A stretch of DNA of 64,000 nucleotides from an uncultured Acidobacteriota bacterium (GTDB taxonomy: Bacteria > Acidobacteriota > Terriglobia > UBA7540). Position numbers and translations under genes: made by a program. Of this stretch, positions 4,601 to 44,194 are shown in pieces. The notes beneath the pieces are model-generated. The model was not told the DNA's origin. It saw only the letters and a list, made by a program, of their open reading frames with translations, and made no database searches. The stretch is from contig CAWDRP010000002.1 of the NCBI GenBank assembly GCA_963804755.1, positions 118,179 to 182,178 on the forward strand, written 5' to 3'. Position 1 is the first letter of the stretch, and every line of letters begins with the position of its first letter.

Positions 4601-4983
4601 TCATCAATGAATTTGCGGGTTCCGGCGGCGACGCCATGCCCTGGTACTTCCGCAAGGCGGGCGTTGGGCCCCTCGTGGGCATGCGCACGTGGGGAGGCCT
4701 GGTAGGAATCGGCGGCTACCCCCAGCTTATGGACGGCGGCTCGGTGACCGCGCCGCGTTGGGCCATTTACGGCTTAAAAGGCCAGTGGGAGGTCGAGAAT
4801 CAAGGCATCTCGCCCGACGTTGAAGTTGAGCTGGACCCCAAACTGGTGCGCGAGGGCCATGATCCGCAACTCGAGCGCGCGGTGCAAGTGGTCATGGAGG
4901 CGCTGAAGAACCATCCCCTGCCCACGCACGCGAAACCGGCTTACCCGAACTATCACGACGTGCTGCCGGCGCCGGTGCGATAA
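1690..4983 (+). CDS. Tricorn-protease-like peptidase: TolB/PD40 beta-propeller repeats plus C-terminal S41 peptidase domain, secreted
   Basis: 1097-aa ORF with an N-terminal signal peptide (MRRLLMASLFVLFASSVTFA). Repeated IFSPDGT/WSPDGK PD40 motifs. C-terminal region is typical of the S41 tail-specific protease family. Confidence 0.8.
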   Translation: MRRLLMASLFVLFASSVTFAADPGPLLLQSPTLSKTQIAFAFGGDIWIVNRAGGDAQRLVTGTGVLSHPIFSPDGTMIAYTGNYDGNDDVYVVAASGGEPRRLTYHPGSDVAVGWTSDGRNILFRTTRSSYSRFERLYTAPATGGFPTPLPLPMGVEGSYSPDGTHLAYVPRWNRRLGAIDAYVAIKHYRGGNAAIIWIADLADSSITRIPRENSNDFSPMWIGDRVYFLSDREGPVTLFSFDTKTQQVKSLIKNDGFDLKSASAGPGAIVYERFGSIHLYDLHSGKTHEVPISVAGDMPQVRPHFEKITNQQILSAGISPTGARAVFEAHGEILTAPAEKGDVRNLTNTPGVEERDPSWSPDGKSIAYFSDESGEYALHIRDQNGLGTVKKIDLGKPPSFFYAPTWSPDSKKIAYSDKRLNLWYVDVDHPSPIKVDTDRFDSPLHEFDMQWSPDNKWLTYTLQLENHMRAVFVYSLESQKTTQVTDGMSDALYPAFDKNGKYLYFTASTNMGLSTGWLDMTSEEHPVTRNVYVAVLRKDLPSPLAPESDEEKPEAAPKAGADKSKEEAKKAEAVKVQIDFDGLSQRVLALPIPARNYYGLFAGKEGVLYVVEGPLVEREFGPPHLTVQRFEMKTRKTEKLLDGISAFDVSFNGEKVLYREGEHWFINPADKAPQSGKGMLNTGAMEVYVVPHDEWKQMFHEVWRIERDFFYDPHFHGLDLEKAEQAYAPFLPGITSRADFNYLLGDMLGNINVLHMYVGGGKHPEIQAVHVGLLGADYTLDSGRYRFARIFNGENWNPQLHAPLTQPGVNMKEGEYLLAINGRDLTANDEIYSFFQETAGKQIVLKVGPHPDGSGSRDVTVMPVDDETALRGLAWIEGNRRKVDELSGGKLAYVYLPNTAGGGYTNFNRYYFAQVGKQGAVLDERFNGGGQLADYIIDYLHRPVMSLVMTREGESYSEPEEAIFGPKAMIINEFAGSGGDAMPWYFRKAGVGPLVGMRTWGGLVGIGGYPQLMDGGSVTAPRWAIYGLKGQWEVENQGISPDVEVELDPKLVREGHDPQLERAVQVVMEALKNHPLPTHAKPAYPNYHDVLPAPVR

Positions 4984-5033
4984 GACAGGTGACAGGGGAA
5001 TCAGTATCGATGTTGACCGTAGGGGAGGCCGCT

Positions 5034-6260: not shown

Positions 6261-6356
6261 GCGAAGGTTTTAACATCGTTCGAGGAGTTCCAGAAAAGCA
6301 TCGCGGTCAATCCCAGCAGTTCGTATGAGGCCGGAAATGATGCCAGTTCAGGGGAG

Positions 6357-6668
6357 TTAAGCGCGGCACGGTAGGTTCTTCTCGAATCCGAATGGTATTG
6401 GGATGGAAATGGGAAAGGCATTTCGGATATTTCGCGGTTTAGCCTTGAAAGGCACAAATCCCAGTTCTTTCATGGCTTGGTCCAGAGTTCCACGTTCCAG
6501 ACAACTGGCGATGAACAACTCCGACGCCTCGACTAGATTAGCTTTGGCTTCTGCAAGGGTCCGGCCTTGCGTGGTAACGTCAAGCGGAGGGCAATGCGCA
6601 ATAAACCAGTCGCCCTCACGCTTGGCAACGCCGTAAAGTACGAAATTTGCTTGTACCACAACCCTCAT
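6357..6668 (-). CDS. HicB-like (UPF0150 fold) antitoxin-domain protein, orphan
   Basis: The N-terminal 65 aa (DWFIAHCPPLDVTTQGRTLAEAKANLVEASELFIASCLERG) fit the HicB/UPF0150 pattern. No HicA partner is adjacent. Confidence 0.3.
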   Translation of the reverse strand: MRVVVQANFVLYGVAKREGDWFIAHCPPLDVTTQGRTLAEAKANLVEASELFIASCLERGTLDQAMKELGFVPFKAKPRNIRNAFPISIPIPFGFEKNLPCRA

Positions 6669-6852
6669 CGGCTATTCCTCCCGGCTGCGGAACTCGCCTA
6701 TTGAGATGCGAGAGGTTGCCTTCTCAGTGACGCGGATTACTTCCTCTGCCGCTGAATGAGCACTATCCGAATACTATCACAAAGCGGAACGTCGGAGTTC
6801 AGCGCGGTCATTTCGTTTTACGGGCTCTTTTACCGGCGGACGTGGGCCCCGG

Positions 6853-9261
6853 TTACGGCGCCGCGAACGGGTCGGGCGGCGGCTTCAGCCGATATTCCTT
6901 CGGCGGCTCGGCGCCCAGTAGATAGCGCACGAAGTAGTCCCACCGTCTTCGCACCATGTACGGCTCATTGCCGAACCCATGCCGGCGGTTGGGCAGCAGG
7001 AGCAGATCGAAATCCTTATTCGCCTTAATCAACTCGTTCACCACCAGCAGCGTGTTATATGGCGGCACGTTGTCGTCGAGCGTGCCGTGGGCCAGCAGCA
7101 GGTGGCCCTTCAGGTTTTTGGCGATATTCTCGTTGGCTTGGTCGTCGTAGTTCGTAGCGCCGTCCGGTGAGCGCGTCAGCAGTCCCTGGTAGCGCTCGCC
7201 CCAATCGTCTTCGTACTCGCGATTGTCATGGTTACCGGCCTCCGAAATTCCCACCTTGAAGAAATCCGGGTAACGAAACATCGCGTCCGCCGCGGCGTAA
7301 CCTCCGCCAGAATGGCCATAAATGCCGGCGCGTGCGAGGTCGATCCACGGATAGCGCTGGGCCAGTTGAGTCATTCCGGCCACCTGGTCAGGCAGTGTGT
7401 TGTCACCCATGTTCCCGTAATAGGCGTCGTGGAATTTCTTCGAGCGCAGCGGATTACCCATGCCTTCGATCTCGACCACCACGAAACCGAGTTCAGCCAG
7501 AGCCTGTGCGTCACTGCGCGCGGACGCGAACGACCAGTTACCGACACTCCCTTCCTGCGGCCCGGGATAAATTTGGTTGATGATGGGATACTTCTTCTGC
7601 GGGTTAAGTCGAGTGGGTGCGAACATCAGGCCGTAGAGGTCGGTCGATCCGTCGCGCGCCTTAACCATGATCGGCTGGGGCGGTTTCCACCCGGTCGCCA
7701 GCAATTGGGAAATGTCGGCCTTTTCGATGGTCGTCAGGAGCTTGCCGTCGGACTGTCGTAGCACGGTGACGGGCGGAACGTCGGGCCGGGAGTAGCTGTC
7801 CACGAAAAAGCGCGCCGAGCGCGAGAAGCTGACCTCATGGTCGGCATCTTCCGGCGTCAACAGCGCGAGTCCCTGCCCATCGAGTCCCGCGCGATACAGA
7901 TGAGTGAAGTAGGGATTGCACCCGGGTTCCCGCCCGTCGGCCAGAAAATAGACCGTGCGCGCCTGCTCATCCACGCGCAATAACCGGGTGACCACCCAGT
8001 TGCCGGCGGTGATGCGGTCCTTCAGCGTTCCCGAACTCAGGTCATAAAGGTAGAGGTGGCCCCAATTGTCGCGCTCGGAGTACCAGATGTACTCGTTCGA
8101 GCCGAACAGGATGCGCCAGTTCACGCCGCCCTGTCCAGATTCGTACTGCGTCGCGACGCGCTCTTCCATGACGTCCCGAACGCGGCCGTTCGCGGCGTCG
8201 GCAATCCGCAGTGTCTCCTGTTTGTGGTCGCGCGAGGTGGAGAGGAAAGCCAGCCGTGTTGAATCCGGACTCCACTGAACGTCCGTCCAATTACCCGCCT
8301 CCTCAAATGGACCATCCGGGCAGGCGACGTCGTCGCACAGTGAGGACCGGTGAGGATCGGGCGCCATCCGCAGGCGAATCACCTTCGGCGTTTCCACCTC
8401 GATGATGACGCGCTGAATGGTGGCTATTACGTCATCGCCCGGCAGCGGGTACTTCCACGCTTGCAGCGCCGGATGGCCCACCTTGGTCTCAACCAGGTAC
8501 ATCTCGCCCACCTTCCGTTGGTCCTGCTGAAAAGTGGCGATCTTCTTCGAGTCCGGCGACCACATCAGGATCGGCCGGTCACTTTTCTCCCATCCCGCGT
8601 TGTCCAAGGCGTACGAGAAGTCCTTGATGCCGTCGGTGGTGAGCTGGGTCTCTTTGCCGCTGGCCACATCGCGCACCCACAGGTTGTACTCGCGTATAAA
8701 AGCCACTTTCTTCTTGTCCGGCGAAGACACCTCGTTGCCCACGCCGCCCCGCCGCCCTTCCCTGCCGGCTGCTCCTTTCGCGCTGCCCTCCTCAGTACAG
8801 ACCCGGCCCTGGCGGTCGCACTGGAACCGGCGGGAGCCGACGTGAAGCGAAACAGATTGGCCATCGGCCGAGAATTCGATTTCGCGGAACGGAAGCTTGT
8901 TCGGCTCGTAAGTCTTGCCTGCCGCCCGCGAAAGAGCCGCTGACAGCCTGGCGTGATCGAAAGCCGGCTCCTTGGCGAGCTTTATGGGGTCAAAGACTAC
9001 GAAGTGCACGCCATCGGCACTGACATCGCGGTACCACAAACGCTCGTCGCTGGTCCACGCGGGCCGCACCGCGTGATACACCAGCGGCTCCGTGTTGTAC
9101 CCCATGAATCTCTCGGCGCGCGCGTAATCGGCAGCGGTTACGACACCAGGCGCCACCGCGTCCTGCGCGCTGACAGACAATCCGATCGGAAAGACGAGCA
9201 ACATCAGCAGTAGTACCAGACAGTGACAATTGCTTTTGAACGGTTGCAAGCGCATAAGCAT
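6853..9261 (-). CDS. S9 family peptidase (DPP IV-type N-terminal beta-propeller plus prolyl-oligopeptidase alpha/beta hydrolase), secreted
   Basis: 802-aa ORF with a signal peptide. GHSGGGY nucleophile elbow (GxSxG) and DPP-IV-like propeller repeats. Confidence 0.8.
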   Translation of the reverse strand: MLMRLQPFKSNCHCLVLLLMLLVFPIGLSVSAQDAVAPGVVTAADYARAERFMGYNTEPLVYHAVRPAWTSDERLWYRDVSADGVHFVVFDPIKLAKEPAFDHARLSAALSRAAGKTYEPNKLPFREIEFSADGQSVSLHVGSRRFQCDRQGRVCTEEGSAKGAAGREGRRGGVGNEVSSPDKKKVAFIREYNLWVRDVASGKETQLTTDGIKDFSYALDNAGWEKSDRPILMWSPDSKKIATFQQDQRKVGEMYLVETKVGHPALQAWKYPLPGDDVIATIQRVIIEVETPKVIRLRMAPDPHRSSLCDDVACPDGPFEEAGNWTDVQWSPDSTRLAFLSTSRDHKQETLRIADAANGRVRDVMEERVATQYESGQGGVNWRILFGSNEYIWYSERDNWGHLYLYDLSSGTLKDRITAGNWVVTRLLRVDEQARTVYFLADGREPGCNPYFTHLYRAGLDGQGLALLTPEDADHEVSFSRSARFFVDSYSRPDVPPVTVLRQSDGKLLTTIEKADISQLLATGWKPPQPIMVKARDGSTDLYGLMFAPTRLNPQKKYPIINQIYPGPQEGSVGNWSFASARSDAQALAELGFVVVEIEGMGNPLRSKKFHDAYYGNMGDNTLPDQVAGMTQLAQRYPWIDLARAGIYGHSGGGYAAADAMFRYPDFFKVGISEAGNHDNREYEDDWGERYQGLLTRSPDGATNYDDQANENIAKNLKGHLLLAHGTLDDNVPPYNTLLVVNELIKANKDFDLLLLPNRRHGFGNEPYMVRRRWDYFVRYLLGAEPPKEYRLKPPPDPFAAP

Positions 9262-9346
9262 TCTTGGGTAATTCTCCTATCTCGGACGACGCACGATTAT
9301 CCATATGGGCGGCCCCGGAGTCAAAGCCGACACAAGGCTATAAAGC

Positions 9347-9591
9347 CACGTCTGAAAAGCCCGCGCAGTGGGCGCCGTCCTTTAGCCCACGGCGCAGCCG
9401 TGGGATAAAGGTAGCGATGAGAATCTGAGCCCCGGTAGGGGCGACGTCTGGGCGCCGGCAGGGCGGAGATTGAACCACGCGCGAGACCTGACGCCGCCCC
9501 TACCGGGGCTGACGAATCGGTGGGCGCGACCGGTGTCCCACGGCTGCGCCGTGGGCTAAAGGACGGCGCCCGCTGCGCGGGCTAAAATCGA
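9347..9591. repeat. REPIN/MITE-like composite element: two inverted REP-like double-hairpin modules (~36-bp terminal inverted repeats) flanking a 130-nt core with its own 15-bp perfect palindrome
   Basis: Left end AGCCCGCGCAGTGGGCGCCGTCCTTTAGCCCACGGC. The right end is its reverse complement. The core has GCCCCGGTAGGGGCG ... CGCCCCTACCGGGGC. A second composite copy lies at 39816-40010. Confidence 0.6.
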
Positions 9592-9740
9592 TGTCGTGTG
9601 AAGCTGTGGTGTGGGCAAGACGAAGTTTGTGAGACAAAGAGCAATGAGTGCTGATAACCATGGAGGAACGGAGACGCAGGGGGCCGCGGGTCCAACCGGC
9701 ATTCTCTGCGTCTCAGAGTCTGAAGGATCAAAGCAGGTGA

Positions 9741-12029
9741 TTAGTGATGTCCGCCACCACCGCCGCCGGAGAAGCCACCCCCGCTGCTGTGGCTGCCGCC
9801 CGCCGAGGAACTCGCGCCGCTGGAGCGTGCGCCACCGGAGTAGCCACCGCCCGAACTGCCGCCGTGGGAACCGCCTGTGGAGCCATGGGCCGCGACCACA
9901 GCGCCTGAACCGCCGCCGAACGAGCGCGAGCCGCCAGGGTTACTAATAACCGGAGCGCCGCCACTCGAGCCGCCGTGCCTTCCGCCTCCAGTAACAGCAC
10001 TGCCGCGAAACTCACCCGGTGTACCCCGCACAGCAAGGTGGCCTCCCAGCGTCGCGCCCTGGAATGCCCGCAACGGCGCGTGGCCGGCATGATGACTTGC
10101 CAGCAGCGCGCTCTCCTTTGCTGCATCACCCCCCATCAGGATGGTGGAAGGCGCACCGTGGTGTGATGCGAAGCTTGAACTCGAGCCACGGGTCGTCGCC
10201 GATGCTGCCGCCGACGCCATCGCTGCGCCCGTCCCTTGCGGAGAGGGTCCAAAAGGCGGTCGGTCGATCCTGCTTCCCTGCGGGGGCAGAACGCGGGTGG
10301 CGATTTGCGCCGTAATCATTTGGCCATTCTGGAAGGCCGCAGTGGGCACTCGGATCATTTCGGCTGACCTGATGCGGGGACCCGCGCCGGGAGGATGAAT
10401 GCCTACGGGTGGCCGGGGTCCGGGGCGGCCCGTCCCCGGGAATCCAGTACTGCTGCCCGAACCTAGGGGCCGCCAGCCGATCCATCCCGGTCCCATATAC
10501 CAACTGACCAGCGAACCTTCCCAAAGCCCGCATGAGTACATCGGGTTCATCCAATACCAACCGAAGCTCGCGTCGAAATCCCAAAGCCCGCAGTGGTCAG
10601 TCACCCAGCCCCATGGGTCGGCGGAAATCCACGCCCAGCCGTAGCCCGAGTACCATGACCACATCCCATTCGTATAAGGCGACCAACCGGCCAGGGAGTA
10701 AGGCGACCAGCCGAACCTGCCACCGGCAAGCGAAACCCACTCACCGTAGGTGTTCAGGTCACCCCAGCCATAGCTTGTCCCCATCGGATGCACGGCCTCG
10801 TCCATCGCCGTAAGCTCTGCCTGCTTGTCCCGTGCCTCCGCCCACTGGTCCCAAGCGTCCTTCACAATTCGCTTCGGGGAGTTGACGGCCATTTCCGTGC
10901 CGCCTATTCTGCGTTCGAATGTCTTGCCTTCAGTCAGACTGGAAGACACCCCCGGCGCGTCAACATCCACCGAGCCATTGAAAACTTCCACGCGAAAGTG
11001 GTCCTGATCAAGGTCGGTACGGAACTCGCATTTGCCACTCGCCGTCACAACGGCGTCCGCAATCTTGACGCGGGTGGCGCCACTGTACTTGGGGAGAAAG
11101 TGGATAACGCCATCCGCTCCACGCTGTTTGGCCGCGGACGCGAAATTGTGTTCGGGCACAAAGTGGAACGTGCCATATCCCTGTTCAAAGGTCATGCCGT
11201 TCAGCTTGTTGCCGTCGGCATCCAGCGCCAATTGGTGGAAGAGCAATTGCGATTGCTCGCCGATGCGCGCCGTGGACCCGTTTTCAAATTCCACTTCGGC
11301 ATAACCGCCGGCGTCGGTGGAAAGCTCGAACCCCTCCTGAATGGGCGTATTCAGCAACGCCTTGGCTGGTTCCGCGGTGCCGGGCCGCTTGAGCATCACC
11401 GCGCCGCTCACGAAGCTCAGGCGAACCACCCTGGCATGCGATTTCGCAACCTCCGCACCCGGCGATGGCACGTACTCCAGATCCTCCCCCTTGCTCACCG
11501 TAAGGGAGTTGGCGTGTGCCGAGATCGAAACGGCGCCTGACGACACGTACAGGGTCACCTTCCCGGAATTGAAACCGACCAGGAATTGGGCTTTCCCCGA
11601 AGGGGTCAGCGTGGCGTCAGCAACCTTCACCTCGTACCCAGGTTGACGTTCAGATGCAAAGCGAAGGTTGATGTATCCCTTTTCCAAGGCGACCTGGCTC
11701 GGTTGGCCGCCATTGGCCTCGCTACTGAATTGGCTGAATTGCGCGGTGGTGAGTCCCTGGAGTTGAAGGGTGGATCCGTTCGCAAGCGCCACGGCGGCTG
11801 CACCCCCACTCGCCGTTGACAGCTCAAGGCCGTCTTCAATGGGCATGTTCACGGTTGCCGGGATCTTCTCCGCGGCGCCCGCGCGCGTAACCGTCACTTG
11901 GCCGCTCAGCGAAGTAAGCCGCGCTGAGTCAAGCTGGGAAGAACCTTGCTGAGAAAAGAGAGCTGCCGGCAGGAAAAGCAGCCCCGCGACTACAACCACG
12001 AGTACACGACGTACGCAATCGTATCTCAC
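9741..12029 (-). CDS. Secreted FecR-domain protein, paralog A: two FecR-like domains, a Trp/Gly/Tyr-rich module, a Pro-rich linker, and a long Gly/Ser low-complexity tail ending GGHH
   Basis: Alignment with the paralog start at 13739 places a GTG start (VRYDCVRRVLVVVVAGLLFLPAALF signal) preceded by GGAGG. The ORF track extends it to 12173. FecR-type motifs are VVRLSFVSGAVMLKRPG...PIQEGFELSTDAGGYAEVEFENGSTARIGE. The W-rich block is YGWGDLNTYGEW...GWSPY...PGWIGW. Confidence 0.6.
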   Translation of the reverse strand: MRYDCVRRVLVVVVAGLLFLPAALFSQQGSSQLDSARLTSLSGQVTVTRAGAAEKIPATVNMPIEDGLELSTASGGAAAVALANGSTLQLQGLTTAQFSQFSSEANGGQPSQVALEKGYINLRFASERQPGYEVKVADATLTPSGKAQFLVGFNSGKVTLYVSSGAVSISAHANSLTVSKGEDLEYVPSPGAEVAKSHARVVRLSFVSGAVMLKRPGTAEPAKALLNTPIQEGFELSTDAGGYAEVEFENGSTARIGEQSQLLFHQLALDADGNKLNGMTFEQGYGTFHFVPEHNFASAAKQRGADGVIHFLPKYSGATRVKIADAVVTASGKCEFRTDLDQDHFRVEVFNGSVDVDAPGVSSSLTEGKTFERRIGGTEMAVNSPKRIVKDAWDQWAEARDKQAELTAMDEAVHPMGTSYGWGDLNTYGEWVSLAGGRFGWSPYSLAGWSPYTNGMWSWYSGYGWAWISADPWGWVTDHCGLWDFDASFGWYWMNPMYSCGLWEGSLVSWYMGPGWIGWRPLGSGSSTGFPGTGRPGPRPPVGIHPPGAGPRIRSAEMIRVPTAAFQNGQMITAQIATRVLPPQGSRIDRPPFGPSPQGTGAAMASAAASATTRGSSSSFASHHGAPSTILMGGDAAKESALLASHHAGHAPLRAFQGATLGGHLAVRGTPGEFRGSAVTGGGRHGGSSGGAPVISNPGGSRSFGGGSGAVVAAHGSTGGSHGGSSGGGYSGGARSSGASSSAGGSHSSGGGFSGGGGGGHH

Positions 12030-12312
12030 GGCCGGCCTCCTGCGGAGATTATACACCCGGCTTCTATATTGATGGACGAAACAGGATGGAGACGGGTTGC
12101 AGTTCTGAAGGCGAGATTCCGATGCGGCAGAAAATGCGCGAAGCGCCTGGGAGTGCGGCCGCGAAGCTGCCACCTTTGCCGTGGTTCTGGTCTTCTCAAC
12201 GAACGCCAGAAGCGGCAGCTTCGCGGCCGCACTCCAAGGCGCTTCGCGCAGGTATAGAACTCAGTTCTTTCTTACTAGAATTCGTGAGCGCCGGCCCAAC
12301 CACTACGCGGCG

Positions 12313-12500
12313 TTAGTGGTGCGCGCCGCTACTTGTGCTTGGGCCAGAACCGGCCGGACGCCCGGCGCCGGAGGTGCCAGAAACGGCCATGCTGGGCGAC
12401 GAGTTGACTGAATTGGCGCCGCCAACGCGCCCGTTCGAGATCGCCCCGCCCTCCATACCACCTTGGCGAGCAAACGCCGCCTGCTGTCCATGGGGCAACT
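12313..12500 (-). pseudogene. C-terminal stub of a FecR-family paralog (B): Gly/Ser tail ...LPHGQQAAFARQGG...GAHH
   Basis: Matches the C-terminus of the 13988-15625 paralog (LPHGQQAAFARQGG...SSSPSMAVS...GGHH) at protein and DNA level. The upstream body is missing. Confidence 0.5.
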
Positions 12501-12685
12501 GACCAACCAGCCGGTACGCTGCCATGTCTCCGCCCGGCTGCCTTCCCTGTGGCAAATCTCTCAGTTCGTCCCTTGCGTCCCACTCTCGGTTATATGTTGC
12601 TTCTGGTGTCATTTCTACGCCGCTATCCATTTCTTCCAAGTGGAGGGCCGGAATCACTCCCGGCCCCGCCACCGCAAGACACGCG

Positions 12686-13444
12686 TTATTGCCCCTTCGC
12701 CCAGCGAGTGTCTTGGTCAGTCCACCTCTTAAGGTCGTCTGCATCTGGTACGATGCCGGCGTGCTTGTAGACAGCTCCCATCACCACACTGGGCTTGTCG
12801 GCCCGGTAGTCACTAGAAACGCTGAAAAGGGCCGGATCGGGCTCCTCGTAAACCAGACTGTCCGCCTTCTGCTCCATGATTACGTTCCCCTCTTCGTCTA
12901 CCGATTGGTACGCAAGGATCCAACACCCGAGACCCGGTGCCGTTTTTAGGGTAACCACGTGTGGCTTAGTTGCCTCCACGTCGTCTGTAATGACAGCAAC
13001 ACGCTCCCCCAGTATCCTGTCCCATCCCCTAAATGTTTGGTTGGCTGAAACACAGTTGGAGCCGGAATTATTAAATCTCCTGAGGAGAGCACCCGCCATC
13101 ACTTGCGGACTTTGCGCCGGATAGTTGATAACCATGCCCACGCTGTCCATGGTCCTAACATTTCTTCCGTCTGAGAACTGTATGTAACGACTGACTTCAT
13201 TCGCTTTTCCCGGAAAGAGACTCCGCTGCATCACGTTGCTGCCGTCTGCTCTGTAGCCCGCAGTTATGTGGTCGATAACTTGGCCCTGGCTGTACAGGGT
13301 GGCCTTCAGCGTAAACGGCCTGACGGTCACCGCTCCTACCGTCGATTGCGCGCGCACGCGAGTTGGTAGGTGGTTCCCCACCAACCAACTCACCACAATA
13401 GCTAGGATACTGATTGCCGCCAAAACCAGCGTCCGTATTTTCAC
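12686..13444 (-). CDS. Hypothetical signal-anchored protein (252 aa) occupying the place of the missing body of FecR paralog B
   Basis: Clean 252-aa ORF with an N-terminal hydrophobic helix (MKIRTLVLAAISILAIVVSWLV). I recognise no domain. It is flanked by the N- and C-terminal stubs of a disrupted paralog. Confidence 0.4.
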   Translation of the reverse strand: MKIRTLVLAAISILAIVVSWLVGNHLPTRVRAQSTVGAVTVRPFTLKATLYSQGQVIDHITAGYRADGSNVMQRSLFPGKANEVSRYIQFSDGRNVRTMDSVGMVINYPAQSPQVMAGALLRRFNNSGSNCVSANQTFRGWDRILGERVAVITDDVEATKPHVVTLKTAPGLGCWILAYQSVDEEGNVIMEQKADSLVYEEPDPALFSVSSDYRADKPSVVMGAVYKHAGIVPDADDLKRWTDQDTRWAKGQ

Positions 13445-13550
13445 AGTTGAAATCCTCCGGTTCGCTAAATTCTTAGTCTCGACTTAAGGCCCCGGCCGTC
13501 AACAGGGGAGACCGCATATGTTGAAACACGACAAATCCAGATCAGAGAGA

Positions 13551-13739
13551 TCACCGCAAGCTTGAATTGTGTTGGGACAGCACTCCGCAAACCGACGTCA
13601 GCCGCGCTGAACCAAGCTGGGAAGAATCCTGTTGCGAAAAGAGAGCTGCGGGTAGGCAAAGCAGCCCCGCGACCACAACCACGAGTACACGACGTATGCA
13701 ATCGTATCTCACGGTCGGCCTCGTGCGGAGATTATACAC
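13551..13739 (-). pseudogene. N-terminal stub of FecR-family paralog B (signal peptide only, then stop)
   Basis: MYNLRTRPTVRYDCIRRVLVVVVAGLLCLPAALFSQQDSSQLGSARLTS is near-identical to the N-terminus of paralog A. The reading frame closes after 62 aa. Confidence 0.5.
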
Positions 13740-13987
13740 CCGGCTTCTATATTGATAGACGAATCAGGATGGAGATGAGTTGCAGCGTTGAGAGCAAGAT
13801 TCCGATGCCGCGAATAATGCGCGAAGCACCTTGGAGTGCGGCCGCGAAGCTGCCGCCTTCCTGGTTCGTTGGGAAAAGCAGGAACCGCGGCAAAGGCGGC
13901 AGCTTCGCGAACTCCAAGGCGCCTCGCGCAGGTATAGAACCCGGTTCTACCACCATTCCTGAGCGCGGGCTCGGCCACCACGCGGCG

Positions 13988-15625
13988 CTAGTGGTGCCCG
14001 CCACTGCTTGAGCTTGATGGACCGGCGCTGGCTGCGTGCCCGGCGCTAGAACTAGAAACGGCCATGCTGGGCGACGAACTCACTGAACTCTGGCCGCCGC
14101 CGGCCTGCCCTCCGGACGTCGGGCCCCCCTGGCGAGCGAACGCCGCCTGCTGTCCATGTGGCAGCAAGGTCGGCCCGCCCGCGGTGCGCGAGAATTGCGG
14201 TCCGCCCACTCCCTTTTGGCCTTTCACGCCGGCAAAAGCATCGCCACGAAATTCACCCACGCCGCCACCCACCGCGTACAGACCGCCCAAGGTTGTTCCC
14301 ATGCGCGCCCGCAGTGGCTGATGGCTGGAGTGCCCCCCCTCAAGCGCAAGTTCCTTCTCCCCTGCGCCTCCCATGAGAATAGAACTCGGCGCGGACGAGT
14401 GTACGGCGCCCGCCCGGGGGGTGAACAGCGCTGCCGTACTCCCCGAGAGCGGCGTGCCGGAAAGCAGCGCTCCGGCGCCGGGTTCGAAAGGCAGCGTCCG
14501 GATCCTGGTTCCCACCGTCACCGGCACATGGTTCACCGTCTCTGGGCTCACCGCCAGTCCGTTTTGAACAACGCCACCCGGAACGGTGGTGACGATGCTT
14601 TGACCCGCCACCCCAAGCGCACCCTGCGGCGCCCAGCCAATCCATCCTGGCCCTGAATACCAACTGACTAATGCTGGGGAGAAGGCCCCCATATTCCCGG
14701 GTGTCCAGAACCAGCCGAAGCCGGGTGAGAAATCCCAATTGCCGTAATGGTAAGGCAGCCAGCCCCACGGCTCACCGGAGATCCACGTGTAACCCATTCC
14801 CGGATACCAATTCCACATCCCCATCGTATACGGCGACCAGCCGGCCGCTGCGAACGGCGACCAGCCATACCCGAACCCGGGGAAGTACCCCCATTCGCCG
14901 TACGCGTTGAGGTCGCCCCACCCGTAAAGAGGCCCCGTGGCCGGCACTGCCTGATCGTTGAACGACAACTGGGTTTGAGTGTCGCGCTGCGATGTCCACT
15001 TATCCCAGGCATCTTTGGCGATTCCCTGCGTTTCGTTCATCGCCATTTGCTGGGACGCCGTATCAAATTCCAGCACCTTTTCCTTGCCCAATTTCGCGGT
15101 CTTCTGGTTGGGCGCGGCAGCTTCCACGGAGCCTGAGAATACTTCCACCCGTGCTTTACCGCGGTCAAGGTCGGTGCGGAATTCGGTCTTGCCGTTCGGG
15201 GTCAGTGTGGTTTCGGCAATCTTCACGCTGTACGCATCGTGGTGTTCCGGCAGAAGGTGAAATGTTGCGTACCCCTGTTCAAATGTGATGCGGTTCAGCT
15301 TGTTTCCCTGCTCATCCATCGCCAGTTGGTCGAAGTTCACCTTGGAGAGCTCGCCCAAGCGCGCCGTCGAGCCGTTCTCGAATTCCACCTCAGCGTAGCT
15401 TTGGGCGGAAGTCGAAATCTCGAACCCTTCCTGGATGGGAGTGTTTACCTGCGCCTTTGCCCATTCCGTGGAGGTCGGCCGTTTCAGGGCCACGGTGCCG
15501 CTGACGTAGCTCAACCGCACCACCCGCACGTGCGATAGGTTTTGTTGGGCAAAAGCAAAGGTGGATAATCCGAAGATCCCGAGAACCAACAACTGAAACC
15601 CATGACGTAAGGCCTTGCTATTCAT
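13988..15625 (-). CDS. Secreted FecR-domain protein, paralog C: one FecR-like domain, Trp-rich module, Gly/Ser tail ending GGHH
   Basis: A start at MNSKALRHGFQLLVLGIFGLSTFAFA is preceded by a GGAGG ribosome-binding site. The ORF track extends to 15754. Same module order as paralog A. Confidence 0.6.
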   Translation of the reverse strand: MNSKALRHGFQLLVLGIFGLSTFAFAQQNLSHVRVVRLSYVSGTVALKRPTSTEWAKAQVNTPIQEGFEISTSAQSYAEVEFENGSTARLGELSKVNFDQLAMDEQGNKLNRITFEQGYATFHLLPEHHDAYSVKIAETTLTPNGKTEFRTDLDRGKARVEVFSGSVEAAAPNQKTAKLGKEKVLEFDTASQQMAMNETQGIAKDAWDKWTSQRDTQTQLSFNDQAVPATGPLYGWGDLNAYGEWGYFPGFGYGWSPFAAAGWSPYTMGMWNWYPGMGYTWISGEPWGWLPYHYGNWDFSPGFGWFWTPGNMGAFSPALVSWYSGPGWIGWAPQGALGVAGQSIVTTVPGGVVQNGLAVSPETVNHVPVTVGTRIRTLPFEPGAGALLSGTPLSGSTAALFTPRAGAVHSSAPSSILMGGAGEKELALEGGHSSHQPLRARMGTTLGGLYAVGGGVGEFRGDAFAGVKGQKGVGGPQFSRTAGGPTLLPHGQQAAFARQGGPTSGGQAGGGQSSVSSSPSMAVSSSSAGHAASAGPSSSSSGGHH

Positions 15626-15869
15626 GGTCGGCCTCCTGCCTGGAGATGAGGGCATTATACGACATTTCCATGTTTGCTGCTGCAAGTATCTTCCCGTACT
15701 TTGCCTCCGGTCAAATCCTGTACTGTCACGCCGCAATCTGCCGCTCCCCTGCATTCCCCATTGCCTTCCTGCTCAAACCATGGGACTCTGTGGTGCCTCG
15801 CGCGGTGGCGAGCTTGCCTCGCCACATGGCGTCATAGGGGCAAGGTTACCTCGCACCAGGACGGTAGTA

Positions 15870-17307: not shown

Positions 17308-18555
17308 ATGACGACCAAAGCAGGTGATCCCCATGCAGAACACGGCCGCAGCGGCCTGAATCGGCGTGCATTCCTGTCCGGCGCCGGGGCGGCGACGGCA
17401 TTCAGCATCATGAAGCCGGGACTGGCGCGTGGCTCGCAAGTCAGTTCCAAAATTGCGCTCGGCTCCATCGGCTGCGGCAGCCGCGGGACGTGGATTGCCG
17501 GCCTTTTCCAAAAGCACGGCGGATACGAAATCAGCGCGGCCGCGGATTACTTCCCGGACCGGGTGAATGCGTTCGGCGACAAGTTCAATATTCCCGCATC
17601 CCGGCGGTTCACGGGCCTGAAGTGTTACCAGAGATTGCTGGATGCCAAGGTTGACGCCGTCGCCATCGAAAGCCCCCCCTACTTTCACGCCGAGCAGGCC
17701 GCCGCTGCGATTGATGCGGGCGTGCATGCGTACCTCGCCAAGCCGATGGCCGTGGATGTCCCCGGCTGCCGCAGCATTGAAGCCAGTGCGAAGAAAGCCG
17801 GGGAAAAGAAGCTTGCCTATCTCATTGACTTCCAGACGCGCACCGATCCCTTTTACCAGGAAGCCATCCGGCGCGTGCAACAGGAAGGCGACATTGGCCG
17901 CATTATCAGCGGCGAGGCGTCGTACGTGGCGGGCTCTCCGTGGCCAAAGATGATCCCCAACCTGATGGTGAATCCGCAGGATCCGGAACGTCGGCTGCGC
18001 GCGTGGGGCATCAGCCGGGCGCTTTCGGGCGACATCATCACCGAGCAGAACATCCACGCCATCGACGTGATGACCTGGATTCTCGATCAGCATCCGGTTA
18101 AGGCGCTGGGCACCGGCGGCCTGAAGTCCCGTACGATCGGCGACGTGTGGGACTACTTCTCGGTGATCTTCTGGTTCCCCAACGACGTGCTGGTCACGTT
18201 CTACTCCAAGCAGTATGGCCAGGGCGCAGACGATATCCGCTGCCAGATGTTCGGCACGGAAGGCGCCATCGACACGCACTACGCCGGCGATGTGGGGATC
18301 AAAGGCAAGGTGATTTACGCCGGAGGCCGCGACAGCATGCTTTACGCCACCGGGGCGGTCCGCAATATCGCCACCTTTTACGATCAGGTTACATCCGGCA
18401 AGCTCGACTACTGTACGGTGGCGCCGGCGGTGCGCAGCAATCTCGCCACCATCCTCGGCCGGACCGCTGCCTATAAGCAGGCGGAGTTCACTTGGGATGA
18501 ATTGATGCAGTCGGAAGAGCGCCTCGACCCGCACCTGGTGGGGTTGAAGGAATAG
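17308..18555 (+). CDS. Gfo/Idh/MocA family NAD(P)-dependent oxidoreductase with Tat signal
   Basis: RRAFLSGAGAATAFS twin-arginine signal. N-terminal Rossmann segment and AKP variant of the family EKP motif. Likely co-transcribed with the upstream MFS gene. Confidence 0.8.
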   Translation: MTTKAGDPHAEHGRSGLNRRAFLSGAGAATAFSIMKPGLARGSQVSSKIALGSIGCGSRGTWIAGLFQKHGGYEISAAADYFPDRVNAFGDKFNIPASRRFTGLKCYQRLLDAKVDAVAIESPPYFHAEQAAAAIDAGVHAYLAKPMAVDVPGCRSIEASAKKAGEKKLAYLIDFQTRTDPFYQEAIRRVQQEGDIGRIISGEASYVAGSPWPKMIPNLMVNPQDPERRLRAWGISRALSGDIITEQNIHAIDVMTWILDQHPVKALGTGGLKSRTIGDVWDYFSVIFWFPNDVLVTFYSKQYGQGADDIRCQMFGTEGAIDTHYAGDVGIKGKVIYAGGRDSMLYATGAVRNIATFYDQVTSGKLDYCTVAPAVRSNLATILGRTAAYKQAEFTWDELMQSEERLDPHLVGLKE

Positions 18556-18581
18556 ACCAGGCCGGAGTCCGGCGTACACAA

Positions 18582-18980
18582 TCACACCCAAAGGGTGTTC
18601 AGTTCGCTCGCTACGCGTTCAAAATCTCTGTCGCTGGTTACCAAGGCGGCTTTGCGGGAACGGGCTAGGGCGCCAGCGAAAGCATCTGCGTAAGGCAGGT
18701 TGTATCTACCTTTGAGGCTCGCAGCTTCCTCCGTGAGCTGCATGTCGGCGTCCACTACTTCAATGGGGAGTTGGGCGATTTCAAGCAGTTTGGCGCGCGC
18801 GATTTTCTCGCCACGCGCGCGCCAGAGCGAGTAATATACCTCCCCCCAATTGACCACACACATCGCCAGCGGCCGCTCGGCGTCAGCGGCCTTGGCCAAC
18901 AACTCCTCCACCTTAGCGGCGCCGGCGCGGTTCTCGAAAAACGTCATGAGCGCGCTCGCGTCCAGCACGTACGTCGTCAT
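18582..18980 (-). CDS. vapC: PIN-domain toxin VapC
   Basis: 132 aa starting MTTYVLDASALM (PIN signature D). Overlaps the upstream antitoxin gene by 4 nt (ATGA). Confidence 0.8.
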   Translation of the reverse strand: MTTYVLDASALMTFFENRAGAAKVEELLAKAADAERPLAMCVVNWGEVYYSLWRARGEKIARAKLLEIAQLPIEVVDADMQLTEEAASLKGRYNLPYADAFAGALARSRKAALVTSDRDFERVASELNTLWV

Positions 18981-19213
18981 AAAGCGCGCTCCCGCTGCCG
19001 CTCCTGCAACAGTACGTCGAGCGCCGAGGGCTCGCCCTCTAGCGAGCCGCGCAGGCTCCGGATGAATTCGCGGGTGACGGGTTGCAAGATCATGCGCCTC
19101 CCATCCTCTGAAAACACCACCACGGTACCCTTTTTGATCGCAAACCTCCGGCGCAGCCGCGCGGGAATCACGAGTTGACCCTTGGACGTCACCACGCTGG
19201 TTTCGAGCTTCAT
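18977..19213 (-). CDS. vapB: AbrB/MazE/SpoVT-type antitoxin VapB
   Basis: 78 aa, MKLETSVVTSKGQLVIPARLRRRF swapped-hairpin motif. Immediately upstream of vapC. Confidence 0.7.
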   Translation of the reverse strand: MKLETSVVTSKGQLVIPARLRRRFAIKKGTVVVFSEDGRRMILQPVTREFIRSLRGSLEGEPSALDVLLQERQRERAL

Positions 19214-19324
19214 AGGTCACATCTCCTGATTATTGGATACCACACCACGATATGTAAGTCAAATTATTATTATCTTACTTCAAGGATAATGTAGCCCGGC
19301 AGGGACCAGGAGCGAGCCGGTACG

Positions 19325-22057
19325 CTATGTCAGCACCACTTCCAGCGGATGATCGGGCGTGACCGTAATTTCCCGGTCGAAGCTAATGATGCGGCGCGTG
19401 GGCTCCGTTTTCAGGCTTGCCTGCAACGCGTCCTCCCCCAGGCGCGCCGAAACCTTGTTGAATGGGCCTTTGGTGACGCCGTTCACCGCCAGCCGCGCTA
19501 CGGCGACTCTGCCTTCCGTGACCTGAACTTCCACGCGCTGCTCCTGCGGCTTGAGCGTGTGGGTGAAGCTGCCCCATCCCGACGGCACCGACCAGAAGCA
19601 GCGGAACGCCTGGCGGCGCGTGCGCGGCATCACGGTAAGTTCGCGCTCGGATGCGGAGTAGCGGAAACCGCTCCAGGCAAGGAAGCAGGCCCAACTCGCC
19701 AGGGCGCGCGCGTAGTGGTGGCCGCATTCCTGCTCGTTCCAGGGATTACGCCGCTCCCCGTCATGCCGGGCGCGCGTCGATTCCACAACGTTCAGCGCCT
19801 CCGTCATCAAGCCCTCGAACGCCAGCGACGCCGCAAACTGGTAATCCAAGCCGGTCCAAATCTCACCGAAATAAGGGAACGGAATCTCCGGCCGTTTGCC
19901 CAGGGGATACGTAGCCACCACCACGCCGCCTTCATCATTGAGGGCGTAGGTGCGCTGAAGATCAACATGCTCGCTCAGGTCCGGCCGGTAGTTGTATTTG
20001 TAAACCGACTTCAGCGCGGCGCGCACGTGCGCTTCATCCAACAGATAGCCAAGGCCCGCCACATGCGCCTGCATTTGGCCCAATAACTGGTCCGCCAGGC
20101 ACGCGTCGCCCATTTGATATTCCGGTTTCAGTGTGTCGCCTGCCCCCATCCCTACGCGGGTGCCGGGAGCGATTTGGTCGGCGGGCCGTCCTTCGACTTT
20201 TTGGATGTAGTACTCGCCGTTGAACAGGTTCTGGTCAAACCAGCGGCTGCCTTTTTCGAAAAGCCGCCGATACTCTGCTGCCGATTCCTGATCGCCAACC
20301 TGGCGCGCCATCTCCTCGCCCGCGCGCAAGGCGCCCAGGTAGTAAATCCCACAGAGGGGATTGGGGCCGTAGAACTCCACGTCGTACGTGTTGTGTTGGA
20401 CGCCCTCGGCAACGCCATCACGGTTCGCGTCCCAACCATTTTCGACCCAGGCGAATTCCAGCGCGCGCTTGGCGTTGGGCCACAGCCGGCGCAGCCAATC
20501 CGTATCACCGCACAGCCGCCATTCGCGGTAGAGCTTGATGAGGCAGCCCATCTGGCCGTCGGCTGCGGCCCGCGGCCAAATCTGCTTGCCGTCGGGCAGA
20601 TACGAGCGGAAGCCCATCAGCCCGTTCGCCTCGGTGTTGCGCAGGAATTCCGATTCGCGCAGAGAGTGCGCGAGCGTCGGGAAAAGCTGCGCGGTGGCCT
20701 GCTCGTAATTCCAGACGTGCGTGCAACTGCCGTGGCAGCAGCCCTGGTGATCGTTGCACCCTTCGAAGCCGTGGAACTCGCCATCGGCAGTGCGGAAGCA
20801 CGTGTTCACCCGCAACGTAGAAAGCGTGCTGGTGGCCGCATCGAGCACCGCCGGCGGCAAGGTGGATCGTTCCATCGCTTCCGCAAACGACCGGGTGCGC
20901 GCTTCGAGTTGGGGCAGTTGCTCAGCGGCTTGTCGAGCGGCCTCCCAGGCGTTGGCAAAACGTTCCGTGTAAGCGTTGCCCACAATCGTACTGCTGGGCA
21001 CCGCTTCCGGAGCGGGCCAGCCGCAACGTTCCGGCGTGCGATTGGGGAAATGCCAGGCAAGCAGAAACGTGACCGCCGCCTGGCCGCGCGCGGCAATGGT
21101 CTGCGTCACCGCCAGGGAACTCACGGGCATCGCCGCGGGACCACGGGAGTCCAGCGCGCCATCGTCGCTGAAATCATCCCAGAACGTCAGCACTCCATTC
21201 CACCACCCGGCCTGCTTCCAGCCGCGCAGATAAGAGACGCTGCCCGCAGGGGCTCCCGCCACACACAACGCAAACGAGCCCTTGAAAGGATCGAAAGACG
21301 CGAGAAACGGGTTATCCATGTACAAACCGCTCAGATCCGCCGCCTCCCGAAAAGCCGCTTGCCGGCCCGCTTTACCCACGGGGTTCTCGATGCTCCAGGC
21401 CAGGCCGACCCGGGCGGGAGCATCGTTGGGATTCCGGATCGCATATCGCAGTACTGCAAGGGGCCAGCCCGAGGCGTCAACATCCAGCGGAACGAGCGGG
21501 TTGAAAGCTTCCAGGGCAACCTGCACGGGCACGTGGGGATCACTGAAGGCAAGGCGCGCAACCGGGTATGCGCCCGTAAACGTGGCTTCCGCAAAACGCG
21601 GCAGACCGGGAGCATTGTCGGAACCGAGGCCGCTGGAGTTCCGGTCATACGGCGGTTGGAGGCGCGATTCCAGAACGCGCGTCGCCGGCTTCTGGTCTCC
21701 CACCTTGGCCCAAATCGCCGGGAACGCGTAACTCAACTCGTTTCCCGCGTCCGGCCGGTTGAAGATTTCCCAGTCGCGCAGTTGGCCGCGCCCGCCGAGT
21801 GAAATGGTGCCCGTGCCGATGCCCCCCAACGGAAAGGCGATCATCTTCAGGTTGCGCCCGGTGAACACACGGGGGAACTGCACGCGACTGGGGCCGGTTG
21901 CGGAGGGCGACGGCGCCGATCTCTGATTGCCGGCCGCCTTCGCGGCTTGACCGGCTAAGGCGGGGGCGCCTAAGGTCGCACTGAACGCCCCACCGGCAGC
22001 CACCTCCTTGAGGAAATCACGACGAGCGTAGCGCTTCCGACCCCGTTTTTCGGACAT
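19325..22057 (-). CDS. Glycoside hydrolase family 116-like (GBA2-type beta-glucosidase/glucosylceramidase) with Tat signal
   Basis: The N-terminal domain motif GGIGTGTISLGGRGQLRDWEIFNRP and a large (alpha/alpha)6-type C-terminal domain fit GH116. The start was moved to MSEKRGRKRYARRDFLKEVAAGGAF (Tat motif), which is preceded by AGGAG. Confidence 0.65.
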   Translation of the reverse strand: MSEKRGRKRYARRDFLKEVAAGGAFSATLGAPALAGQAAKAAGNQRSAPSPSATGPSRVQFPRVFTGRNLKMIAFPLGGIGTGTISLGGRGQLRDWEIFNRPDAGNELSYAFPAIWAKVGDQKPATRVLESRLQPPYDRNSSGLGSDNAPGLPRFAEATFTGAYPVARLAFSDPHVPVQVALEAFNPLVPLDVDASGWPLAVLRYAIRNPNDAPARVGLAWSIENPVGKAGRQAAFREAADLSGLYMDNPFLASFDPFKGSFALCVAGAPAGSVSYLRGWKQAGWWNGVLTFWDDFSDDGALDSRGPAAMPVSSLAVTQTIAARGQAAVTFLLAWHFPNRTPERCGWPAPEAVPSSTIVGNAYTERFANAWEAARQAAEQLPQLEARTRSFAEAMERSTLPPAVLDAATSTLSTLRVNTCFRTADGEFHGFEGCNDHQGCCHGSCTHVWNYEQATAQLFPTLAHSLRESEFLRNTEANGLMGFRSYLPDGKQIWPRAAADGQMGCLIKLYREWRLCGDTDWLRRLWPNAKRALEFAWVENGWDANRDGVAEGVQHNTYDVEFYGPNPLCGIYYLGALRAGEEMARQVGDQESAAEYRRLFEKGSRWFDQNLFNGEYYIQKVEGRPADQIAPGTRVGMGAGDTLKPEYQMGDACLADQLLGQMQAHVAGLGYLLDEAHVRAALKSVYKYNYRPDLSEHVDLQRTYALNDEGGVVVATYPLGKRPEIPFPYFGEIWTGLDYQFAASLAFEGLMTEALNVVESTRARHDGERRNPWNEQECGHHYARALASWACFLAWSGFRYSASERELTVMPRTRRQAFRCFWSVPSGWGSFTHTLKPQEQRVEVQVTEGRVAVARLAVNGVTKGPFNKVSARLGEDALQASLKTEPTRRIISFDREITVTPDHPLEVVLT

Positions 22058-44082: not shown

Positions 44083-44194
44083 CTAACCCTAACGCCACGG
44101 TCAGGGAAGGTGGACGGAAGAAAAAAAATTTACGAACGAAGCCACCAAGTTATTGAAAACAAAGGATCGCAGAACAAATTGACCGAAAAAAAGC

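What the first reader, a model, noticed from the sequence alone, without database searches (positions are those of the whole stretch)
12313..13739. Middle paralog gutted: an unrelated 252-aa signal-anchored ORF sits between its N- and C-terminal stubs
Only the first 62 codons (13551-13739) and the last ~60 codons (12313-12500) of paralog B remain. These are the signal peptide and the ...LPHGQQAAFARQGG...HH tail. The ~1 kb between them is replaced by an intact-looking ORF (12686-13444) with no similarity to the array. This looks like a gene replacement or insertion-deletion event inside a paralog array. The inserted ORF could be newly acquired cargo or a newly emerged gene.
Basis: seen in the sequence. 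Interest (0 to 1): 0.55.

Follow-up and report, generated by a model that had tools for sequence, protein, structure and literature searches.

The report
Cargo gene inserted with duplicated gene junction
A soil acidobacterium gained one small secreted-protein gene, together with a divergent second copy of the boundary between two neighbouring genes; this leaves two gene "stubs" that look like a gutted third gene but are not, and it is an ordinary though neatly resolved strain-specific insertion.

Summary
A 53-62-codon signal-peptide stub (13551-13739) and a ~60-codon C-terminal stub (12313-12502) flank an intact, unrelated 252-aa ORF (12686-13444).

The "gutted middle paralog" reading does not hold. 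The two stubs belong to one ~590-bp direct repeat. Each copy holds the last ~60 codons of the upstream FecR/DUF6600 gene C, the intergenic hairpin, and the promoter, leader and first 41 codons of the downstream gene A.

Fifteen related Terriglobia genomes have only C directly followed by A. The closest relative (L070, ~95% nt identity) shows the empty site: the window equals L070 plus exactly one 1683-bp unit, with nothing deleted.

The repeat copy next to C, which includes the head stub, is the native junction (92.8% to L070). The copy now attached to A, which includes the tail stub, is divergent (80.7%), and its substitutions are mostly synonymous.

So the native head of A was severed from its body. 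A now uses a divergent promoter and signal peptide. The cargo gene sits behind the native A promoter.

The cargo is not a new gene. It has a 57% homologue and about 246 distant relatives, and its confident model has a LolA/RseB-like fold. Interest is modest.

The parts
13988..15754 (-). Gene C: FecR + DUF6600 protein. The ORF is 588 aa; the likely start gives ~545-550 aa. The gene is intact.
   Evidence: Pfam FecR 2.3e-11 and DUF6600 3e-22. It is 97% identical to P0158 of L070, with an identical tail.
13588..14169 (-). DR2, the native copy of the C-tail/intergenic/A-head junction. It holds the C tail (13988-14169), the hairpin, the promoter and leader, and the head stub.
   Evidence: It is 92.8% identical to the single junction of L070, with 97% in the tail. 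Site patterns: DR1 odd 93, DR2 odd 23, L070 odd 18.
13818..13930 (-). Long GC-rich hairpin just downstream of the C stop codon; a likely terminator or REP-like element.
   Evidence: RNA fold gives -83.6 kcal/mol. It is present in L070 and absent from the more distant relatives.
13731..13738 (-). Extended -10-like TGTATAAT, the native promoter element of A. It now lies upstream of the head stub and ORF252.
   Evidence: It is identical in DR1, DR2 and L070. Thirteen relatives carry TGTAAAAT at the same place. Function is inferred.
13551..13712 (-). Head stub: the native signal peptide of A (MRYDCIRRVLVVVVAGLLCLPAALFSQQ...). It is cut off from the body of A at ~13588 and runs 12 more codons to a stop.
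   Evidence: DR2-specific changes fall in its Shine-Dalgarno site (13723 G>C), in the spacer (13715) and at a Phe>Cys in the signal peptide (13657).
12503..13587 (-). U: a unique 1085-bp segment with lower GC, carrying the cargo gene together with its own Shine-Dalgarno site and 3' hairpin.
   Evidence: There is no other copy in the window or in the fetched loci, and no similarity to A or C. GC3 is 62.8% against 69-79% for most neighbouring genes.
12686..13444 (-). ORF252: an intact gene for a signal-anchored or secreted protein with a LolA/LolB/RseB-like half-barrel fold. GTG start; GGAGG at 13454-13458.
12639..12674 (-). GC-rich hairpin right after the ORF252 stop codon; possibly the cargo gene's own terminator.
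   Evidence: -34.2 kcal/mol, z = -3.4.
11905..12502 (-). DR1, the divergent second copy of the junction. It holds the tail stub (12313-12502), the hairpin (12135-12250), TGTATAAT (12048-12055), the leader, and the head now used by A (GTG 12029).
   Evidence: It is 80.7% identical to the L070 junction and 79.7% to DR2. Identity switches sharply to native sequence (60/60) immediately after 11903. The divergence has a coding signature: tail pN 0.20 and pS 0.46; head pN 0.057 and pS 0.28.
12313..12502 (-). Tail stub: a C-type C-terminal ~62 codons (QLPHGQQAAFARQGG...GAHH*), lying in the divergent copy.
   Evidence: Its best match among the 120 C homologues tested is the C/L070 tail, at only 63% aa identity. 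It has in-frame indels relative to C.
9741..12029 (-). Gene A: a FecR(x2) + DUF6600 protein. The body is native (93-100% identity to L070 in 60-nt windows over most of its length). The promoter, leader and first 41 codons come from the divergent copy.
   Evidence: Pfam; sliding identity against L070.

Best explanation
The ancestral locus is a two-gene tandem: MFS transporter, then C, then A. C and A are both exported FecR/DUF6600 proteins.

In the window's lineage one 1683-bp unit sits exactly in register inside this pair. The unit consists of U, a 1085-bp foreign segment carrying one complete gene (ORF252), plus J', a ~600-bp divergent second copy of the C-tail/hairpin/promoter/A-head junction.

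The result is the order C body, native junction ending in an orphaned native A head (the head stub), U, J' starting with an orphan C-type tail (the tail stub), then native A body.

This geometry is what a single-crossover (Campbell-type) integration of a circularised unit produces, or an equivalent unequal homologous exchange. The crossover would lie near the head end of the junction. J' was already diverged when it arrived, having come from a related lineage or from a paralogous C'/A' pair.

Functional consequences (inferred):
- C keeps its tail and terminator hairpin.
- A stays intact but is now driven by the imported promoter, leader and signal peptide.
- ORF252 lies behind the native A promoter and ahead of a terminator-like hairpin. 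It has its own Shine-Dalgarno site and signal sequence.
- ORF252 is probably exported to the periplasm, where its LolA/RseB-like half-barrel would bind a hydrophobic ligand or partner.

Shown: the anatomy, the empty site, which copy is native, the intactness and family of the cargo gene, and its fold.

Inferred: the recombination mechanism, the source of J', transcription from the duplicated promoter, and the biochemical role.
For: The repeat is a single one on one diagonal, spanning tail, intergenic region and head.

Thirteen relatives have a C tail (..LPHGQQ..GGHH*) followed 116-551 bp later by an A head (RPAVRYDRIRRVLVVVVAGLLFLPAALFSQQ), with no third gene and no ORF252. L072 is the same.

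The close relative L070 aligns 8431-12045 to window 17196-13585 (94.8%) and 11463-14426 to window 12497-9568. Its single junction therefore matches both repeat copies, and the window has exactly one extra unit.

Three-way comparison: L070-DR2 92.8%, L070-DR1 80.7%. Site patterns are 93 (DR1 odd), 23 (DR2 odd) and 18 (L070 odd). The body of A is 60/60 identical to L070 directly after the repeat ends.

The divergence of DR1 is mostly synonymous. In the tail there are 20.7 synonymous and 26.3 non-synonymous differences on 44.5 and 129.5 sites. In the head there are 10 and 5 on 35.8 and 87.2 sites. J' therefore evolved as part of working genes, not as a decaying remnant in place.

DR2-specific changes hit the stub's Shine-Dalgarno site and signal peptide, which fits recent orphaning.

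U carries a Shine-Dalgarno site and a 3' hairpin. ORF252 is collinear with a 57% homologue that lies in an unrelated context. Its GC3 is about 10 points below most host genes, and the same is true of its homologue in its own genome.

Independent assemblies confirm both junctions.
Against: No donor carrying J' or U-J' was found. Two metagenome DNA scans gave 0 hits, and no C homologue in the database has a tail closer to the tail stub than C itself.

The inferred crossover must lie within the last ~12-25 nt of a ~590-bp homology. This is a priori unlikely (about 4%) and rests on 4 informative sites.

The polymorphism could equally be read as an excision in L070 from an older J-U-J' ancestor.

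A short patch (GATTGC.TACGTCG) is shared by DR1 and DR2 but not by L070. Explaining it needs gene conversion or a heteroduplex patch.

Promoter and terminator roles are consistent with the sequence only. The consensus scan did not call a sigma-70 promoter at this site.
Confidence: 0.6

Rival explanations
1. A third, hybrid paralog B, with an A-type head and a C-type tail, existed as a working gene for a long time in this lineage. Its interior was then replaced by U. L070 later lost the remnant by recombination between the repeats.
For: A long period as a working gene would explain the mostly synonymous divergence of the stubs and the in-frame indels in the tail. Related genomes do carry extra paralogous loci, for example L043.
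Against: None of 15 relatives has a middle paralog. There is no trace of a FecR/DUF6600 body in U. The model needs three events. It also needs the L070 deletion to end within ~12-25 nt of the very point where U begins. The repeat boundaries coincide exactly with the ends of U, which is expected for a one-unit insertion but not for an independent internal replacement.
Confidence: 0.12
2. The junction was tandemly duplicated in place and filler DNA (U) was captured at the new joint, long ago. The two copies then diverged in place, and L070 secondarily excised the unit through repeat recombination.
For: The geometry J-U-J is what a tandem duplication with a filled joint gives. Both copies are each other's nearest relatives compared with the 13 distant genomes: 85% and 72% against 62-65% and 50-54%.
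Against: A tail stub that had been neutral since the event should show pN about equal to pS. The observed values are 0.20 and 0.46. That is 26 non-synonymous and 21 synonymous differences against an expected ~35 and ~12, a hand chi-square of about 8.5. The head stub carries fewer derived changes than the working A head (3 against 9). About 20% repeat divergence would have to pre-date a split of only ~5%, with the empty allele regenerated precisely.
Confidence: 0.15
3. The structure is an assembly chimera, in which a repeat-induced misjoin between co-occurring strains placed U between two junction variants.
For: The source is a metagenome-assembled genome. A related organism carrying the ORF252 homologue occurs in the same sequencing runs.
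Against: Two further assemblies from different samples reproduce the head-stub/U, U/tail-stub and J'/native-A-body joins at 99.9-100% identity. The repeats are only ~80% identical, which is too divergent to confuse an assembler.
Confidence: 0.02

Closest known systems
Campbell-type (single-crossover) integration products and tandem units that can be excised by recombination between their repeats
   Same: A cargo segment is bracketed by direct repeats of the target sequence. It differs from the empty allele by exactly one unit. Both flanking genes stay intact. The repeat copies are mosaics of a resident and an incoming version.
   Different: No plasmid, phage or recombinase is involved. The repeats are ~20% diverged. 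The origin of the circular or linear intermediate is unknown.
Displacement arrays of Rhs, CDI and T6SS effector loci, where homology-anchored insertion leaves orphan gene fragments (PMC5361080 and the Rhs C-terminal displacement work cited there)
   Same: Incoming DNA carries its own copy of a conserved gene end. The resident copy of that end is pushed aside and survives as an orphan stub next to the new cargo.
   Different: Here the 5' end (promoter plus signal peptide) is displaced, not a 3' toxin tip. There is a single event rather than an array. No toxin or immunity genes are involved. The homology-facilitated illegitimate recombination proposed there normally deletes recipient DNA rather than duplicating it.
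The LolA/LolB/RseB(MucB) half-barrel superfamily (the comparison for ORF252)
   Different: There is no sequence-level match to any Pfam, NCBIfam or PDB family. Sequence identity to the structural matches is 4-14%. Extra C-terminal helices are present. The ligand or partner is unknown.
Tandem FecR/DUF6600 gene pairs of Terriglobia
   Same: C and A are clear orthologues of a pair that is conserved next to an MFS transporter in many genomes.
   Different: The stubs contain neither domain. No sampled genome has three such genes at this locus.

Membership tests
FecR/DUF6600 paralog (the supposed middle gene B) | Presence of the FecR (PF04773) and DUF6600 (PF20245) domains | tested here: not met
   The stubs and ORF252 have no Pfam hit, whereas A and C have both domains. 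Profile comparison of the ORF252 family against C gives probability 0.05%. There is no remnant in U.
FecR/DUF6600 paralog (the supposed middle gene B) | A third gene at the syntenic position in related genomes | tested here: not met
   C is directly followed by A in 13 GTDB relatives, L072 and L070.
One-unit insertion flanked by target duplication (Campbell-type product) | Direct repeats of the target flank the cargo, and the empty allele differs by exactly repeat plus cargo with no deletion | tested here: met
   The L070 junction 11463-12045 aligns to both repeat copies. The window has 1683 extra bases.
One-unit insertion flanked by target duplication (Campbell-type product) | One repeat copy is resident-type and the other is incoming-type | tested here: met
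   L070-DR2 92.8% against L070-DR1 80.7%; site patterns 93/23/18.
One-unit insertion flanked by target duplication (Campbell-type product) | A circular intermediate or donor allele can be demonstrated | not testable with these tools
This needs read-level data or PCR.
Transposable element (IS or MITE) | Transposase, terminal inverted repeats and a short target-site duplication | tested here: not met
   There are no terminal inverted or short direct repeats at the ends of U. The only ORF has a LolA-like fold.
Plasmid or phage cargo | Homologues on known plasmids or phages | tested here: not met
   tblastn found no match in 72,556 plasmid records or 50,697 phage records.
LolA/LolB/RseB superfamily (ORF252) | Unclosed beta-barrel fold | tested here: met
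LolA/LolB/RseB superfamily (ORF252) | Sequence membership of a curated family (LolA, LolB or MucB_RseB Pfam models) | tested here: not met
   No Pfam or NCBIfam hit for ORF252 or for the relatives tested. The only exception is an extra POTRA domain in one longer relative (P0127). There is no PDB sequence hit.
LolA/LolB/RseB superfamily (ORF252) | Binding of a lipid, lipoprotein or anti-sigma partner | not testable with these tools
   This needs biochemistry.

The most novel reading that the evidence does not exclude
The 1.68-kb unit may be a recombinase-free, self-propagating cassette. In this reading, a cargo gene is permanently coupled to a copy of the conserved C-tail/A-head junction. The unit can loop out by RecA recombination between its repeats. 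It can then re-enter any related genome that has the C-A pair. Each time it would swap the promoter and signal peptide of A and place the cargo under the resident A promoter.

A weaker variant is that the RseB/LolA-like cargo protein works together with the FecR-domain proteins it landed between.
Probability: 0.12. Interest if true: 0.55.

Novelty: new member of a known kind. Interest (0 to 1): 0.3.

Why it matters
The case shows how two gene stubs around a foreign ORF can mimic a gutted paralog. The real event was an insertion that duplicated a gene boundary and left both neighbours intact.

It gives a cleanly resolved natural example in uncultured Terriglobia of three things: gene gain without mobile-element machinery, the swap of a gene's promoter and signal peptide for a divergent copy, and capture of a resident promoter by new cargo.

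It also flags an uncurated family of about 250-aa exported proteins, with 246 cluster representatives, that has a LolA/RseB-like fold.

None of this overturns current understanding.

Tried and rejected
- Two exact DNA-pattern scans of metagenome contigs for the lineage-specific leader and head found nothing. A SNP in L006 explains one of the misses.
- The first AlphaFold run, with 2 sequences, was unusable (pLDDT 35). It was rescued with a 74-sequence alignment.
- The afdb50 fold library was unavailable.
- The word-index search with the family alignment returned few members.
- The contexts of four family members from different loci show no conserved neighbourhood and no FecR genes (L001/L002, L065, L066, L067/L068). 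A functional link to the array was therefore not pursued.
- Rejected as explanations for U: an IS or MITE, plasmid or phage origin, homology of ORF252 to FecR/DUF6600, and remnants of a paralog body in U.
- The 143-aa ORF (12313-12744) as a real gene was considered unlikely. It overlaps the ORF252 3' end and hairpin and has no convincing Shine-Dalgarno site.
- An integron-cassette reading of the hairpins was considered. The repeat ends lie more than 200 bp from the hairpins. No attC core-site or integrase search was run, so this is a judgement, not a test.
- No paper mentions DUF6600.
- Rfam gave nothing at the gathering threshold in the window.

Full report
**1. What is in the sequence.**

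On the minus strand the region reads as follows:
- Gene C, 13988-15754, with FecR and DUF6600 domains.
- A short signal-peptide ORF, 13551-13739.
- An intact 252-aa ORF, 12686-13444.
- An ORF whose last ~62 codons form a G/S-rich ...HH tail, 12313-12502.
- Gene A, 9741-12173, with FecR and DUF6600 domains.

A and C are 48% identical.

**2. The two stubs are one repeat.**

Self-BLAST and alignment show a single direct repeat on one diagonal: DR1 11905-12502 and DR2 13588-14169. Each copy contains, in order:
- the last ~60 codons of an upstream gene;
- its stop codon;
- a very stable hairpin (-98 and -84 kcal/mol);
- a conserved TGTATAAT motif;
- a GGAGG-type ribosome-binding site;
- the first 41 codons (the signal peptide) of a downstream gene.

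Identity is 74% in the tail, 76-80% in the spacer and hairpin, 85% in the leader and 87% in the head.

Between the copies lies U (12503-13587, 1085 bp). U has no similarity to A or C by BLAST or by profile comparison and no terminal repeats.

**3. Related genomes.**

A scan of GTDB species genomes with protein A returned 57 Terriglobia and Acidobacteriota loci.
- In 13 of them both orthologues are present. C, ending ..LPHGQQ...GGHH*, is followed 116-551 bp later by A, beginning ..RPAVRYDRIRRVLVVVVAGLLFLPAALFSQQ.
- The head stub is therefore A-type and the tail stub C-type. The repeat is a duplicated C/A boundary.
- No genome has a third gene or ORF252 at this position.
- The two window copies are each other's closest relatives: 85% and 72%, against 62-65% and 50-54% to the other genomes.

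**4. The empty site.**

A protein search with C found P0158, 97% identical, on a 110-kb JGI contig. The locus fetched from that contig (L070) has the order GFO, MFS, C, a 400-bp gap, A, then an S9 peptidase.
- L070 8431-12045 aligns to window 17196-13585 (94.8%).
- L070 11463-14426 aligns to window 12497-9568.

The single junction of L070 thus matches both repeat copies. The window equals L070 plus exactly 1683 bp (U plus one junction copy), with nothing deleted. L072, whose C is 79% identical at nt level, is also empty.

**5. Which copy is native.**

In the three-way alignment the L070 junction is 92.8% identical to DR2 (tail 97%) but only 80.7% to DR1. Site patterns are DR1 odd 93, DR2 odd 23 and L070 odd 18. 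Immediately after the end of the repeat, the body of A is 60/60 identical to L070.

So the copy attached to C, including the head stub, is the resident junction. The copy now attached to A, including the tail stub, is a divergent version (J'). Two things follow:
- The head stub is the original head of A, severed from its body.
- A now uses the promoter, leader and signal peptide of J'.

**6. How J' diverged.**

Differences between the copies are mostly synonymous:
- Tail: 20.7 synonymous and 26.3 non-synonymous differences on 44.5 and 129.5 sites (pS 0.46, pN 0.20).
- Head: 10 and 5 on 35.8 and 87.2 sites (pS 0.28, pN 0.057).
- The indels in the tail are in frame.

The tail of C is 100% identical in protein to that of L070, so most tail changes lie on the J' branch. 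J' therefore evolved as part of working genes, not as a dead remnant in place.

Changes specific to DR2 include G>C in the stub's ribosome-binding site (13723, invariant in 13 relatives, L070 and DR1) and Phe>Cys in the signal peptide (13657). These fit recent orphaning.

No C homologue in the database has a tail closer to the tail stub than C itself (63% aa). The source of J' is therefore unidentified. It could be a related lineage or a paralogous pair elsewhere in the same genome.

**7. Mechanism (inferred).**

A one-unit difference in exact register, with one resident and one incoming repeat copy, is the signature of single-crossover integration of a circularised unit, or of an equivalent unequal homologous exchange.

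The few informative sites place the crossover in the last ~12-25 nt of the homology. This is unlikely a priori and is the weakest point of the model. Excision in L070 from an older insert-bearing ancestor gives the same pattern and cannot be excluded.

A comparable logic has been proposed for Rhs and T6SS effector arrays, where homology-anchored insertion displaces a resident gene end and leaves it as an orphan (PMC5361080). Here it is the 5' end that is displaced.

**8. The cargo.**

- **Gene structure.** ORF252 starts at GTG 13444, with GGAGG nine bases upstream. A GC-rich hairpin follows its stop codon (z = -3.4).
- **Closest homologue.** ORF252 is collinear over its full length with P0002 (57% identity). 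P0002 lies in another Terriglobia genome between a cytochrome c gene and an ABC ATPase gene, with no FecR genes nearby. dN is 0.30 against dS 1.9.
- **Wider family.** An exhaustive HMM search found 246 cluster representatives at E<=1e-3, mostly 240-290 aa. The members tested have no Pfam, NCBIfam or PDB sequence match, apart from an extra POTRA domain in one longer relative. The members whose contexts were looked up lie in unrelated neighbourhoods.
- **Likely location.** The N-terminal hydrophobic helix and two invariant cysteines suggest an exported protein.
- **Composition.** GC3 is 62.8% against 69-79% for most host genes. P0002 shows the same deficit in its own genome, which fits a gene that moves between genomes.
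- **Not plasmid- or phage-borne.** No plasmid or phage homologues were found.

**9. Reliability.**

Independent contigs L069 (100% identity, 13689-12221) and L006 (99.9% identity, 13226-11097) confirm both ends of U and the join of J' to the native A body.

**10. Verdict.**

It is wrong on the central claim: there was no gutted third paralog and no deletion, and the gene is not new. This is a strain-specific insertion of a known general kind, resolved in unusual detail.

Noticed in passing
window 43728-44403 (and L001 3417-4066): A ~680-bp block is 86% identical between this genome and the genome carrying the 57% ORF252 homologue. No gene is called there in L001. The window has only short ORFs (up to 172 aa) there, and no Rfam family reaches threshold. 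It may be a conserved non-coding RNA or a repeat element.
   Followed up: partly
window 12135-12250 and 13818-13930: There is a ~115-bp near-perfect palindrome (-98 and -84 kcal/mol) downstream of the C-type stop codons. It is present in L070 but absent from the 13 more distant relatives. It is a lineage-specific REP-like or terminator element.
   Followed up: partly
window 9358-9583: A nested inverted repeat lies just downstream of gene A. The outer arms are 59 nt (9358-9416 and 9525-9583, 92% complementary) and the inner arms are 24 nt (9428-9451 and 9487-9510).
   Followed up: no
window 9741-9800 and 13988-14050; tails of C orthologues in L010-L037: Every C orthologue ends in a low-complexity G/S-rich tail terminated by ..G(G/x)HH-stop, and so does the window's gene A. 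This is a conserved C-terminal His-His motif of unknown role in FecR/DUF6600 proteins.
   Followed up: no
window 9741-12029 (gene A): A contains two FecR-like modules. Residues ~45-207 and ~211-400 both align to C residues ~32-200. A therefore arose from a C-like gene with an internal module duplication.
   Followed up: no
window 6853-9261: An S9 (DPP-IV type) peptidase gene follows A in the window and in L070. It is absent from this position in the 13 more distant relatives, so it is an older lineage-specific gain at the same locus.
   Followed up: partly
window ~4983-5024, 6261-6850, 18555-19366 versus L070: There are further strain-level differences from L070. L070 has a PIN/PhdYeFM toxin-antitoxin pair (L070 18208-18781) that the window lacks. 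The window has ~590 bp (6261-6850) and a ~0.8-kb segment (18555-19366, a 212-aa ORF) with no counterpart in L070.
   Followed up: no
L002/L069 (ERR11596056) and L003/L007 (ERR12036783): The organism carrying ORF252 and the organism carrying its 57% homologue P0002 occur in the same sequencing runs, so the two lineages co-exist in the same habitat.
   Followed up: no
L072 (ENA ERZ25039587 contig_54219): Many genes in this contig are split into 2-4 fragments (Glyco_hydro_42, MFS, Tricorn, the A orthologue). This suggests frameshift-rich long-read assembly errors rather than real pseudogenes.
   Followed up: no
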